Positions 55,754 to 57,327 of a stretch of 64,000 nucleotides of DNA are shown here, piece after piece. Origin of the DNA: a candidate division TM6 bacterium GW2011_GWE2_36_25 (GTDB taxonomy: Bacteria; Babelota; Babeliae; Babelales; UBA12409); contig LBRU01000001.1 of the NCBI GenBank assembly GCA_000991575.1, positions 156,996 through 220,995 of the forward strand, read 5' to 3'. The notes beneath the pieces are model-generated. The model was not told the origin of the DNA, did not search any database, and saw nothing but the letters and a program-made list of their open reading frames with translations. Positions within the stretch are counted from its first letter, which is position 1. Each line of letters opens with the position of its first letter. Both the position numbers and the translations under genes were made by a program.

Positions 55754-56542
55754 ATGAAAACAATATACCTTTTATTACTTATAGCTCCTTTATTTTCGAT
55801 GGAAAAAAAAGATAAGGATGAAAAAGCTCGATTTATTTCTGAAGAAATTGCGTGTGCTATTTGTAGAGAAGAACTTAAAGATACTTTTTCATGTGGACAT
55901 ACCGTTCATCCTTGGTGTGGTGTTCCGCATAGTGATGGGGCGATCAAATGTCCAATGTGTGAACCTAAAAAAACTTATCATCAAGCAACTCAAACTGAAC
56001 CGAAAATAATTTCGACAAAATCTACTGTTACGCAAACAGAGATAGTTCAACAGTCATTGTTGGTGGCTTGTTGTTCTCTTATTAAACCAGATACATCCGA
56101 TTGCTATTGGTACCCTGATTATTTAAAAGATAATATAAGGGGATTGGGGGAATGGCGACGACCAGATGGTAGGGTTACGTTGTATGAATTGATGGATTGC
56201 TGTTGTATGCGTCATACAGGGGCATTCTTATTTAGTGATCACGGTATTATTTGTCCCCGATGCTGTCTTGATAAAACACCGTGTTGGGATGAACTTCATA
56301 AAACGTGGTGTGGTTGTTCCGATGACGTAAGGAATGGATGTAGAATTGTCTTTCCTGCATTACTCCTTCCTTTGTGTTTTGGATTTCATAATGGATGTCT
56401 AATGGCGCTTCCTATATTATGCGTTGAAAATATTGTATGTGGTGCGTTGAGGGACGAAAAGTATGGATGTAAATGTGAAGGTGAATGTCCTTATTGGTGG
56501 CCAAGTAAATTTGAACGTCCAAGATCTCTTCGAAAGAATTAA
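55754..56542 (+). CDS. Secreted RING-H2 protein with Cys-rich C-terminal domain (paralog A)
   Basis: Signal ending LFS-ME; CAIC-x9-CGHTVHPWC-x10-CPMC; Cys-rich tail. Confidence 0.8.
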   Translation: MKTIYLLLLIAPLFSMEKKDKDEKARFISEEIACAICREELKDTFSCGHTVHPWCGVPHSDGAIKCPMCEPKKTYHQATQTEPKIISTKSTVTQTEIVQQSLLVACCSLIKPDTSDCYWYPDYLKDNIRGLGEWRRPDGRVTLYELMDCCCMRHTGAFLFSDHGIICPRCCLDKTPCWDELHKTWCGCSDDVRNGCRIVFPALLLPLCFGFHNGCLMALPILCVENIVCGALRDEKYGCKCEGECPYWWPSKFERPRSLRKN

Positions 56543-56544
56543 AT

Positions 56545-57327
56545 ATGAAAAAAATAATGCTTATATTTATATATGTGCATTGCCTTTTTGGTATGGATGC
56601 TGAATCTGTTTCTTCAGAAATATGTGATAAATGTCATGACAGAATTGTCACTACGTTACCATGTGGGCATAAATTTCATCCAAAGTGCATTGGGGAATGG
56701 TGTAATAGTGGTATTTCACGAGTTTTGCGGTGTCCATGTTGTCGAGGCTCAATTCATAAATATCCAACGATAGAAGACCGTTCAAAATCAATTGAAGTTC
56801 AAGTGTCAAACACGAAAGAAATGGCAACGCAGACTGATCCTGTTACTTGCGTTATACCGTTGTGTGCATTATGTTCTCTTTTTCGAAGACCACACGTCCC
56901 CTGTTATTGGTATTGTGATTATGTAAAAGATAATCTTGAACCTTCAGCTCCTCGATATTGGGGTGAGACCTTTCATGAAATAGCGTGTCGCAATGGGGGT
57001 CCGAATTGTTGTTTGCTTTCAGGAGATAGCTTTCGTCATGTTGGCGCGTTCTTATTCAGTGATCATGGTATATGTTTTCCCTATTGTTGCATTAAAAAAA
57101 CTCCCTGCTGGGAAGGCGCAACTAAAAAATGGAGTGGTCTTTCACCATATGAACGTACGTTAATACGATGCTGTTTGTTTTGTCCATTTTTTGGCCCATT
57201 TTTTACAGATTGGAATAAAGAAATTGCTCAAGAAGAACTGAAAAAGGGTAAAGATGTTAAGTGTGACGAATGTCCTTATTGTTGGCCAGAGCTTTTTGAG
57301 AAAGAAATATCTATGCATGCTGAATAA
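56545..57327 (+). CDS. Secreted RING-H2 protein with Cys-rich C-terminal domain (paralog B)
   Basis: Signal ending LFG-MD; CDKC-x9-CGHKFHPKCIGEW...RCPCCR; tail homologous to paralog A (GAFLFSDHGI, KTPCW, ECPY.WP). Confidence 0.85.
   Translation: MKKIMLIFIYVHCLFGMDAESVSSEICDKCHDRIVTTLPCGHKFHPKCIGEWCNSGISRVLRCPCCRGSIHKYPTIEDRSKSIEVQVSNTKEMATQTDPVTCVIPLCALCSLFRRPHVPCYWYCDYVKDNLEPSAPRYWGETFHEIACRNGGPNCCLLSGDSFRHVGAFLFSDHGICFPYCCIKKTPCWEGATKKWSGLSPYERTLIRCCLFCPFFGPFFTDWNKEIAQEELKKGKDVKCDECPYCWPELFEKEISMHAE

What the first reader, a model, noticed from the sequence alone, without database searches (positions are those of the whole stretch)
55754..57327. Tandem secreted RING-H2 paralogs: an active-type plus degenerate E3 ligase pair
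Seen: both have all eight C3H2C3 ligands and are 2 bp apart. Paralog B has the E2-contact Trp (CIGEW) and the linchpin Arg (CPCCR). Paralog A lacks both (CGVPHS, CPMCE). They share a novel Cys-rich tail (CYWY.DY.KDN, RH.GAFLFSDHGI, CC..KTPCW, ECPY.WP), and A adds a hydrophobic segment. Known: RING-H2 domains are eukaryotic E3 ligases, and active/inactive RING heterodimers exist (BRCA1-BARD1). Inference: a heterodimeric, possibly lipid-anchored bacterial E3 effector.
Basis: partly seen in the sequence, partly recalled or inferred. Interest (0 to 1): 0.76.

Follow-up and report, generated by a model that had tools for sequence, protein, structure and literature searches.

The report
Tandem exported RING-H2 effector paralogs
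Two neighbouring genes of a small-genome bacterium that probably lives inside protists each encode an export signal, a eukaryote-type RING-H2 ubiquitin-ligase finger and a cysteine-rich tail found nowhere else; they are most likely host-directed effectors of a known kind, and nothing supports the idea that they work as an obligate pair.

Summary
ORF A (55754-56542, 262 aa) and ORF B (56545-57327, 260 aa) lie 2 bp apart and are paralogs (32% identity, E 6e-30). Both carry all eight C3H2C3 ligands at canonical spacing. They share a ~165-aa tail with ~10% Cys.

- **B's RING is real.** Pfam and PDB hits are RINGs only, and an AF2 model of residues 18-80 matches only RING domains in its top 50.
- **A's RING is weaker** and rests mainly on paralogy with B.
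- **"Active plus degenerate" is only partly right.** B keeps Trp, Pro and the linchpin Arg but has Lys at the hydrophobic E2-contact position. A keeps Ile and Pro but has His and Glu at the other two.
- **The tail is an orphan.** There is no hit in Pfam, NCBIfam, PDB, about 15 billion proteins, 261 genomes of the phylum or 185,579 species genomes.
- **The genome holds at least 10 signal-peptide RING genes.** Two same-genus genomes lack TauE, A and B between OmpH and MutL.
- **The only sister lineage** keeps B intact, but A carries a +1 frameshift.

Best reading: Sec/type II-exported, host-directed RING-H2 effectors that arose by tandem duplication, with B the likelier ligase. No data support an obligate heterodimer. 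A conserved TQT (LC8-type) motif in both linkers is the most interesting lead.

The parts
55754..56542 (+). Gene A: signal peptide, diverged RING-H2, TQT linker, Cys-rich tail with hydrophobic hairpin (262 aa)
   Evidence: ORF. Paralog of B, E 6e-30. Pfam zf-C3HC4_2 20.6 bits, below the cut-off of 27. PDB hits are all RINGs at E 0.04-0.4.
55754..55798 (+). A signal-peptide-like N-terminus, MKTIYLLLLIAPLFS|ME
   Evidence: Hydrophobic stretch at aa 1-16. The same '[AGS]-M-[EDN]' junction occurs in most of the genome's RING genes. Cleavage is inferred, not predicted by a dedicated tool.
55853..55960 (+). A RING-H2 (C34..C69): all 8 ligands; Ile36 and Pro67 kept; His59 replaces the E2-contact Trp; Glu70 replaces the linchpin Arg
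55988..56038 (+). A linker with two TQT motifs (HQATQTE at aa 79-81, STVTQTE at aa 93-95)
   Evidence: Both are conserved in the L005 ortholog. They fit the LC8 motif described in PMC3078936 and PMC6607443.
56051..56539 (+). A orphan Cys-rich tail (aa 100-262), including the hydrophobic segment at aa 198-233 (56345-56452)
   Evidence: No family or structure hit.
56545..57327 (+). Gene B: signal peptide, RING-H2, TQT linker, Cys-rich tail (260 aa)
56545..56592 (+). B signal-peptide-like N-terminus, MKKIMLIFIYVHCLFG|MD
56623..56742 (+). B RING-H2 (C27..C66): 8 ligands; Trp52, Pro64 and Arg67 present; Lys29 at the usual hydrophobic position
   Evidence: zf-RING_2 at 24.7 and 28.0 bits. AF2 pLDDT 71.7 and top-50 Foldseek matches all RING or U-box. 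The RING core (aa 27-67) is identical in the L005 ortholog; over codons 1-75, which also take in the signal peptide and the residues just after the RING, there is 1 synonymous and 11 non-synonymous changes.
56797..56835 (+). B linker with VQV (aa 85-87) and TQT (EMATQTD, aa 95-97)
   Evidence: T95-Q96-T97 is invariant in A, B and both orthologs.
56839..57324 (+). B orphan Cys-rich tail (aa 99-260)
   Evidence: AF2 of full-length B was uninformative, pLDDT 31.
54894..55610 (+). TauE/SafE-family permease gene. With A and B it fills the OmpH-MutL gap that is empty in two same-genus genomes. It is context only, not shown to act with A or B.

Best explanation
A and B are tandem-duplicated members of a genome-wide family of exported, eukaryote-like RING-H2 proteins. 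The host genome is about 1.07 Mb and low in GC. It probably belongs to an intracellular parasite of protists; earlier scan notes call it Dependentiae/TM6, which I did not verify.

**Proposed route and action (all steps inferred).**
1. A Sec-type signal peptide takes each protein across the inner membrane.
2. A secretin-based (type II-like) system, or direct exposure to host cytosol, brings it to the host.
3. There the RING-H2 finger binds a host E2~ubiquitin and acts as an E3 ligase.
4. The orphan Cys-rich tail supplies targeting, either by binding zinc or by attaching to host membranes through its hydrophobic, Cys-rich patches. In A a ~35-residue hydrophobic hairpin would add to this.

**Division of labour.** B is the better ligase candidate. 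Its RING core is identical in the sister lineage and keeps Trp52, Pro64 and Arg67. A is a faster-evolving copy with a weakened E2~Ub surface (His59, Glu70). It is either specialised for something else or on its way to loss.

**What is shown.** Gene structure, paralogy, the eight ligands, the RING fold of B, the orphan status of the tail, the family expansion, and the lineage-specific position of the locus.

**What is inferred.** Export, the host as the site of action, E3 activity, and the role of the tail.
For: **RING identity.**
- Pfam and PDB hits are RING-type.
- The eight ligand columns and the Pro are invariant in 56 RINGs.
- The AF2 and Foldseek top 50 are all RING or U-box.
- 85 of 87 whole-library hits match only the RING region.

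**Family context.**
- zf-RING_2 hits 10 loci in this 1.07-Mb genome. None of 14 control genomes scores over the cut-off.
- Each of these genes has a signal-like N-terminus and a different C-terminal module: ankyrin repeats, a TM segment or a Cys-rich end.

**Export and host context.**
- Three secretin genes are present, and no DSBA or Thioredoxin_4 family oxidase was found. This is compatible with Cys-rich zinc proteins passing the periplasm in reduced form.
- Neighbouring genes include a signal-peptide DOT1-like methyltransferase.

**Evolution of the pair.**
- Two same-genus genomes have OmpH directly followed by MutL, so the locus is lineage-specific.
- B is conserved (dN/dS 0.36, RING core identical). 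A is relaxed (dN/dS 0.67) and frameshifted in L005.

**Precedent.**
- Babela massiliensis has a RING protein and many signal-peptide eukaryote-like proteins (PMC4378268).
- SneRING of Simkania is an active E3 although it has Ser at the hydrophobic E2-contact position. Simkania also has a neighbouring intact plus degenerate RING pair, SNE_A08700 and SNE_A08690 (PMC12591485).
Against: - There is no expression, secretion or activity data. No RNA run holds the locus.
- No signal-peptide predictor was available. The cleavage sites (LFS|M, LFG|M) are not classical AxA sites.
- Both Pfam scores in hmmscan fall below the gathering cut-off.
- B has Lys at the position where most RINGs contact the E2 through a hydrophobic residue.
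- The tail could not be modelled (pLDDT 31), so its role is a guess.
- How a Sec or type II substrate would cross a host vacuole membrane, if there is one, is unknown.
- The phylum assignment comes from unverified earlier notes.
Confidence: 0.58

Rival explanations
1. A and B form an obligate heterodimeric E3 of the BRCA1-BARD1 type. B is the catalytic RING, A is the inactive stabilising or targeting partner, and the complex is anchored by lipidation and by A's hydrophobic segment.
For: - The genes are adjacent, 2 bp apart, and probably co-transcribed. No terminator lies between them.
- The arrangement is kept in L005.
- The shared tail could be a dimerisation module.
- A lacks the Trp and the linchpin Arg that B has.
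- Simkania also has an intact plus degenerate neighbour pair.
Against: - In L005, A is frameshifted while B is intact.
- A's dN/dS of 0.67 points to relaxed constraint.
- The RINGs begin 10-18 residues after the signal peptide, so the N-terminal half of a flanking helix bundle is missing.
- B itself lacks the hydrophobic E2 contact, so the split is not a clean active/inactive one.
- Tandem duplication alone explains the adjacency.
- No interaction test was possible.
Confidence: 0.12
2. Host LC8-bridged dimers. The conserved TQT motifs in the linker just after each RING recruit the host dynein light chain LC8/DYNLL. LC8 is a dimeric hub that pairs two client chains, so it would dimerise A and/or B, and possibly activate the RINGs or couple them to dynein cargo.
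For: - A carries HQATQTE and STVTQTE. B carries EMATQTD, plus a VQV variant.
- T-Q-T is invariant in A, B and both orthologs, although the linker is otherwise poorly conserved.
- Three of the 7 TQT in the window's 55 ORFs lie in these two proteins, against 0.06 expected.
- The motifs fit [DS]-K-x-[TVI]-Q-[TV]-[DE]. They have D or E at +2 and no proline before the anchor (PMC3078936; PMC6607443).
- LC8 is described as a 'dimerization engine'.
Against: - Many TQT peptides do not bind LC8 (PMC6607443).
- The favoured basic residue at -3 is absent.
- Disorder of the linker was not shown.
- A's second TQT and B's TQT are homologous, so the count is not three independent events.
- My literature search found no bacterial LC8 client.
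- The idea came from another first-stage note and was only partly tested here.
Confidence: 0.15
3. Not ubiquitin-related. A and B would be envelope or extracellular Cys-rich (disulfide- or metal-binding) proteins of the bacterium itself. The RING-like cross-brace would serve only as a structural zinc module, or A at least would be a decaying, functionless duplicate.
For: - Sec-type leader, about 10% Cys and a hydrophobic segment in A.
- Pfam scores below the cut-off.
- A is frameshifted in L005 and under relaxed constraint.
- Another exported 14%-Cys protein lies in the same window.
Against: - B keeps residues that matter only for E2~Ub engagement: Trp52, Pro64 and Arg67.
- B's RING core is identical in the sister lineage.
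- No DsbA-type oxidase was found to build disulfides.
- All ten RING genes carry the same leader, and several combine it with ankyrin repeats, a typical host-directed architecture.
Confidence: 0.12

Closest known systems
Eukaryotic monomeric RING-H2 E3 ligases (gp78/AMFR, RNF38, RNF165/Ark2C, Arkadia, HRD1; Pfam zf-RING_2 PF13639)
   Same: - C3H2C3 ligands at canonical spacing.
- B has PCGHxFHxxCIxxW...CPxCR with Trp, Pro and the linchpin Arg.
- These are the best sequence and fold matches.
   Different: - The fingers are bacterial, sit directly behind a signal peptide, and have no eukaryotic partner domains.
- B has Lys instead of Ile/Val before the second ligand.
- A has His and Glu instead of Trp and Arg.
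- The C-terminal domain has no relatives.
SneRING (SNE_A12920) and the neighbouring SNE_A08700/SNE_A08690 pair of Simkania negevensis (PMC12591485)
   Same: [quoted passage not shown]
- SneRING is active despite a non-hydrophobic residue at the E2-contact position.
- SNE_A08700 and SNE_A08690 are adjacent paralogs, one intact and one degenerate.
   Different: - They come from a different phylum and show no detectable sequence relationship outside the generic RING.
- SneRING uses atypical ligands, whereas A and B have all eight canonical ones.
- SNE_A08690 has lost ligands, and A has not.
Signal-peptide eukaryote-like proteins and the RING-finger 'potential E3' of Babela massiliensis (Dependentiae; PMC4378268)
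   Same: The same strategy: Sec-leader proteins carrying ubiquitin-system or ankyrin domains, presumed to be secreted into the amoeba.
   Different: - Babela was reported with one RING protein. This genome has at least 10.
- The A/B tail is absent from 260 other genomes of the phylum.
BRCA1-BARD1, RING1B-BMI1 and MDM2-MDMX heterodimeric RING pairs
   Same: Two RING proteins in which one has a weaker E2~Ub surface.
   Different: - No flanking helix bundle is possible on the N-terminal side.
- No interaction evidence exists.
- The 'inactive' partner is dispensable in a sister lineage.
- The resemblance is by analogy only.
LC8/DYNLL clients with TQT anchors (e.g. Bim, Bmf, Swallow, dynein IC, viral phosphoproteins)
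   Same: A TQT anchor followed by D or E, in a polar linker, present in one or two copies per chain.
   Different: - The proteins are bacterial.
- The favoured basic residue at -3 is missing.
- Binding is untested.

Membership tests
RING-H2 zinc finger (C3H2C3; Pfam zf-RING_2) | Eight Zn ligands, C-x2-C-x9-39-C-x1-3-H-x2-3-H-x2-C-x4-48-C-x2-C | tested here: met
   Spacings are x2, x9, x1, x2, x2, x10, x2 in A and x2, x9, x1, x2, x2, x14, x2 in B. The ligand columns are invariant in a 56-sequence alignment.
RING-H2 zinc finger (C3H2C3; Pfam zf-RING_2) | Profile score at or above Pfam's gathering threshold | tested here: inconclusive
   B scores 24.7 bits in hmmscan (cut-off 27.3) and 28.0 bits in the six-frame search. 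A scores 15.7-20.6 bits, below the cut-off in both.
RING-H2 zinc finger (C3H2C3; Pfam zf-RING_2) | Cross-brace beta-beta-alpha fold | tested here: met
   Tested for B only. AF2 gives pLDDT 71.7, with 78-85 in the core. The 50 best PDB matches are all RING or U-box, TM 0.5-0.6, rmsd 1.6-2.5 A over about 50 residues.
RING-H2 zinc finger (C3H2C3; Pfam zf-RING_2) | E2~Ub-engaging residues: hydrophobic at C1+2, Trp in the helix, Pro after C7, linchpin Arg/Lys after C8 | tested here: inconclusive
   B has K29, W52, P64, R67 (3 of 4). A has I36, H59, P67, E70 (2 of 4). SneRING shows that the first position can be non-hydrophobic in an active ligase.
RING-H2 zinc finger (C3H2C3; Pfam zf-RING_2) | E3 ligase activity with an E2 | not testable with these tools
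   Needs a biochemical assay.
Heterodimeric RING E3 (BRCA1-BARD1 type) | Helices flanking both RINGs that form the dimer interface | tested here: not met
   The first ligand lies 18 (A) and 10 (B) residues after the predicted signal cleavage. The residues after each RING form a polar T/Q/S/K/P-rich linker. The full-length AF2 model was uninformative.
Heterodimeric RING E3 (BRCA1-BARD1 type) | Physical A-B interaction and co-dependence | not testable with these tools
   Indirect evidence only: A is frameshifted and B intact in L005, which argues against co-dependence.
RBR (RING1-IBR-RING2) ligases | A second RING-like or IBR zinc domain downstream | tested here: not met
   Profile-profile comparison of the tail against the RING alignment gives probability 0.3%. 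There is no Pfam IBR hit.
Sec/type II-exported eukaryote-like effectors of Dependentiae | N-terminal signal peptide | tested here: inconclusive
   A basic start is followed by an 11-13-residue hydrophobic core and S or G at -1. The feature is shared by all ten RING genes. No dedicated predictor was available.
Sec/type II-exported eukaryote-like effectors of Dependentiae | Secretin-based export machinery in the genome | tested here: met
   Three secretin (PF00263) genes score over the cut-off. Whether A and B are substrates is unknown.
LC8/DYNLL clients | TQT anchor with permissive flanks in a disordered region | tested here: inconclusive
   The anchors are present and conserved, with D or E at +2 and no proline before the anchor when compared with the published motif. 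Disorder and binding were not tested.

The most novel reading that the evidence does not exclude
A and B would define a new effector architecture: signal peptide, RING-H2, TQT linker, then an orphan Cys-rich module. In it a bacterial RING ligase is dimerised, as homo- or heterodimers, by the host hub protein LC8/DYNLL through conserved TQT motifs just behind the RING. The Cys-rich tail would be a new zinc- or palmitoyl-dependent host-membrane anchor. To my knowledge this would be the first bacterial LC8 client, and the first case of a pathogen E3 using a host dimerisation engine for activation.
Probability: 0.12. Interest if true: 0.72.

Novelty: new variant of a known kind. Interest (0 to 1): 0.36.

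Why it matters
Exported RING-type E3 mimics are a recognised strategy of intracellular bacteria, and only very few have been tested (SneRING, 2025). This locus adds three things:

- **Scale.** It is one case within an unusually large family, at least 10 signal-peptide RING genes in about 1 Mb. This shows how a parasite without injection systems diversifies ubiquitin-hijacking effectors by swapping C-terminal modules.
- **A new module.** The ~165-aa Cys-rich domain has no relative among about 15 billion proteins. It is a candidate new targeting domain.
- **A testable motif.** The conserved LC8-type motif gives a cheap hypothesis for how such RINGs might dimerise in the host.

On its own, and without experiments, the finding is an expected kind of gene with an unexplained tail.

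Tried and rejected
- **Full-length AF2 of B** with the four available homologs gave pLDDT 31 and was unusable. The tail therefore has no structural reading.
- **Homolog searches for the tail** found only A, B and the L005 orthologs:
  - phmmer over 1.84 billion representatives;
  - word-indexed searches with B, with the tail profile and with the RING region (the last passed only 3 candidates);
  - six-frame profile search of 261 genomes of the phylum (three hits at E 1e-3 to 8e-3 are at chance level);
  - 185,579 species genomes (RING-only hits);
  - Pfam, NCBIfam and PDB.
- **Tail as a second RING or IBR** was rejected: hhalign probability 0.3%.
- **DHHC-like reading of 'SDHGIC'** was considered from memory and dropped, because no Pfam hit supports it.
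- **Lipoprotein reading** was rejected: there is no lipobox Cys at the end of either leader.
- **Promoter scan** was uninformative, with fewer hits than in shuffled sequence.
- **Mobile-element footprints** around the TauE-A-B insertion were not found.
- **Expression data** are lacking: only DNA metagenome runs hold the locus.
- I could not count RING genes across the phylum or compute genome-wide TQT and Cys statistics. The window's 55 ORFs were used as the baseline instead.
- **Organism identity.** The organism's name could not be confirmed with the tools. 'Dependentiae' rests on earlier unverified notes.
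Full report
**1. What is there**

ORF A (55754-56542, +, 262 aa) and ORF B (56545-57327, +, 260 aa) are both open. Only 'AT' separates A's TAA stop from B's ATG. No terminator-like site lies between them, and a strong one follows the upstream OmpH gene. Co-transcription is therefore likely, though it is inferred. The two proteins are paralogs: 32% identity over the full length, E 6e-30.

Each protein has four parts:
- a short basic and hydrophobic N-terminus (MKTIYLLLLIAPLFS|ME in A, MKKIMLIFIYVHCLFG|MD in B);
- a C3H2C3 finger;
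- a polar linker;
- a ~165-aa tail with about 10% Cys (26 and 27 Cys).

A's extra hydrophobic segment is at aa 198-233. Identical sequence is found in contigs of independent groundwater and soil runs, so the locus is not an assembly artefact.

**2. Are the RINGs real?**

*B: yes.*
- zf-RING_2 scores 24.7 bits in hmmscan, just under the 27.3 cut-off, and 28.0 bits in the six-frame genome search.
- phmmer against the PDB returns RING domains (gp78/AMFR, RNF38, HRD1, RNF165 and others, from E 7e-5), apart from four weak non-RING matches at E above 0.4 that fall outside the RING region.
- A phmmer scan of 1.84 billion representatives gave 87 hits. Of these, 85 match only residues ~20-100, i.e. the RING.
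- In an alignment of 56 RINGs the eight ligand columns and the Pro after C7 are invariant.
- An AF2 model of B 18-80 built on that alignment has pLDDT 71.7, with 78-85 in the core. Its 50 best PDB matches are all RING or U-box domains, with rmsd 1.6-2.5 A over about 50 residues.

*A: weaker evidence.*
- Scores are 15.7-20.6 bits and 19.9 bits.
- PDB E-values are 0.04-0.4, but all ten hits are RINGs.
- A has all eight ligands at canonical spacing. Its 10-residue C6-C7 loop equals that of COP1 and RNF126.
- A is B's paralog through the tail.

**3. 'Active-type plus degenerate'?**

I compared the four positions that usually engage E2~Ub across the ten RINGs of this genome and the 56-sequence alignment.

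| Position | A | B | Other RINGs |
|---|---|---|---|
| Hydrophobic residue before ligand 2 | Ile36 | Lys29 | The other eight own-genome RINGs have I, V, L or M; ≥70% Ile in this column of the 56-sequence alignment |
| Helix Trp | His59 | Trp52 | at least 90% conserved |
| Pro after C7 | Pro67 | Pro64 | invariant |
| Linchpin after C8 | Glu70 | Arg67 | 6 of the other 8 own-genome RINGs have R or K |

So B has three of four and A has two of four. Neither is textbook. SneRING of Simkania is an active E3 with Ser at the first position (PMC12591485), so Lys29 does not disqualify B.

A's RING has diverged more than its tail. A3's own identity line puts A-to-B RING identity at 22% and a separate ten-RING alignment puts it at 32%, against 41% in the tail.

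Between the window and its only sister lineage (L005):
- B's RING core (aa 27-67) is identical in protein.
- B as a whole has dN/dS 0.36.
- A has dN/dS 0.67.

**4. The tail**

The tail has no relatives outside this lineage. Searches that found nothing:
- Pfam at E up to 10, NCBIfam and a PDB profile search;
- the 5.8-billion-cluster collection, searched with a tail profile;
- 260 other genomes of the same phylum, including two of the same genus and five of the same family;
- 185,579 species genomes.

It is not a second RING or an IBR (hhalign probability 0.3%). AF2 of full-length B with four sequences failed (pLDDT 31).

Across A, B and both orthologs the invariant potential ligands are few: C110, C120, C156, H165, H174, C181 and C182 (B numbering). 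The Cys of ECPY.WP is also kept in the three complete tails. The other ~10 Cys shift position between copies.

Two readings are open and untested. One is a small zinc module. The other is Cys-rich hydrophobic patches that attach to membranes, for example through host S-acylation. Two other small RING proteins of the genome end in Cys-rich hydrophobic or polybasic stretches (KKRWCCFCLKCKK; CMGLCCTIINHMF). This gives the membrane reading some context but no proof.

**5. Genomic and evolutionary context**

- The window belongs to a 1.07-Mb assembly of 17 contigs, 94.6% complete, with about 36% GC.
- Earlier notes of this scan call the organism a Dependentiae (TM6) bacterium. I could not verify the name. 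The small genomes of the 261-member phylum set and the gene content fit.
- zf-RING_2 hits 10 loci in the genome, while none of 14 control genomes scores over the cut-off.
- Every one of these genes starts with a signal-like leader and continues into a different C-terminal module: three with ankyrin repeats, one with a TM tail, two with Cys-rich ends, one with R/E-rich repeats, plus A and B.
- Three secretin genes are present.
- No DSBA or Thioredoxin_4 family member was found. This is compatible with zinc and Cys-rich proteins crossing the periplasm in reduced form (inference).
- Neighbours include a signal-peptide DOT1-like methyltransferase, OmpH/Skp, TauE, MutL and Ku.
- In two same-genus genomes the order is DOT1(-), OmpH, MutL with nothing in between. 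TauE, A and B are therefore a lineage-specific insertion. No repeats or mobile-element marks flank it.
- The only other carrier is a 12.7-kb groundwater contig (L005) with the same A-B-MutL order and the same 2-bp junction.
  - B there is intact (78% identity).
  - A has an extra T at window position 56350, inside the hydrophobic segment. This shifts the frame, yet the downstream frame still encodes ...ECPYWWPSKFERPRSLRKN.
  - The contig's word depth is 34, so the frameshift is probably real. Only contigs were available, not reads.

**6. How it most likely works**

See the best explanation (confidence 0.58). Both proteins are exported by Sec and then by a secretin system. They act in the host as RING-H2 E3 ligases or E2-binding modules, with the tail giving localisation or substrate choice. 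B is the conserved, likelier active copy, and A is a diverging duplicate. The precedent is the signal-peptide, ubiquitin-related proteins of Babela massiliensis (PMC4378268) and SneRING. Simkania also has adjacent intact and degenerate RING paralogs.

**7. The heterodimer idea**

Nothing here supports an obligate A-B complex.
- There is no room for BRCA1/BARD1-type N-terminal helices.
- The pair is not a clean active/inactive split.
- A is broken where B is intact in L005.

It remains possible at about 0.12.

**8. An LC8-type motif**

A more specific route to dimers comes from another first-stage note on this stretch, which I partly checked.
- Both linkers carry TQT anchors: A has HQATQTE and STVTQTE, and B has EMATQTD plus a VQV variant.
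- The T-Q-T aligned between A and B is invariant in all four sequences, although the linker around it is poorly conserved.
- Three of the seven TQT in the window's 55 ORFs (18,974 aa) fall in these 522 residues, against 0.06 expected.
- The motifs fit the LC8/DYNLL consensus [DS]-K-x-[TVI]-Q-[TV]-[DE] (PMC3078936). They also fit the preference for D, E or P at +2 and the absence of prolines before the anchor (PMC6607443).
- The same paper warns that many TQT peptides do not bind.
- LC8 pairs two client chains, so host LC8 could dimerise these RING proteins.
- I found no report of a bacterial LC8 client.
- I rate this reading at about 0.15.

**9. Novelty and verdict**

The kind, an exported bacterial RING E3 mimic in a protist parasite, is known and recurs in this scan's notes on other Dependentiae genomes. 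What is new is the architecture:
- an orphan Cys-rich tail;
- conserved TQT linkers;
- a tandem pair with unequal RINGs;
- a very narrow distribution.

I file it as a new variant of a known kind, interest 0.36.

**10. Limits**

There was no signal-peptide predictor, no multimer modelling and no expression data. The genome search and the fetch from genomes closed, so phylum-wide RING counts and genome-wide motif statistics could not be made.

Noticed in passing
window 55750-56930 versus L005 122-1320: A plus the 5' half of B are 85-95% identical in DNA to the sister contig apart from one indel-rich 77% bin, whereas most bins of the flanking genes are 61-85% identical. dS is 0.17 for A and 0.02 for B codons 1-75, against 1.15 for MutL. 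This looks like a recent recombination or transfer tract between two groundwater lineages, or an unexplained constraint on the DNA.
   Followed up: partly
own genome: L030-L038 (C5:20929, C7:2128, C9:39102, C15:18062, C4:97655, C5:12255, C4:64599, C5:42222) plus window A and B: The 1.07-Mb genome holds at least ten signal-peptide RING genes with swapped C-terminal modules: ankyrin repeats, a TM tail, Cys-rich ends, R/E-rich repeats.
   Followed up: partly
N-termini of A (aa 13-18), B (aa 14-19) and the RING genes in L030-L038; also an alpha/beta-hydrolase-like ORF in L032: Most of these leaders end in hydrophobic-[A/G/S]-Met-[Glu/Asp/Asn]: LFS-ME, LFG-MD, LWA-MN, MSA-MD, LSA-ME, SNA-ME, LNS-ME, LCA-ME, LFG-ME; C4_107 (P-ME) and C9_346 (no such junction) depart from this. 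The mature proteins would therefore start with Met plus an acidic residue, like a fresh eukaryotic N-terminus. Housekeeping exported proteins in the window (OmpH, the DOT1-like protein, the 633-aa protein) lack this junction.
   Followed up: no
window 53295-53951 (-): Signal-peptide protein with a DOT1 histone-methyltransferase domain (Pfam DOT1, E 7e-24). It is conserved at the same position in two same-genus genomes. It is a candidate host-chromatin effector.
   Followed up: no
window 31874-32317 (-): 147-aa ORF with a signal-like leader and 14% Cys, the most Cys-rich ORF in the window. It is unrelated in sequence to the A/B tail.
   Followed up: no
window 56146-56197 (A) and 57199-57283 (B): Each gene has one short stretch that is replaced rather than substituted in the sister lineage: 50 versus 68 nt, and 83 versus 80 nt. 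These are hypervariable loops inside the otherwise conserved tail.
   Followed up: no
window 56102-56134 / 56902-56934 and 56483-56503 / 57268-57288: Short DNA stretches that encode CYWY.DY.KDN and ECPY.WP are 85% and 95% identical between A and B, although the genes are only 32% identical in protein. This points to strong constraint or small gene-conversion patches.
   Followed up: no
whole genome G000: There is no DSBA (PF01323) or Thioredoxin_4 (PF13462) family gene, but there are three secretin genes. The periplasm may lack a classical disulfide-forming system.
   Followed up: partly
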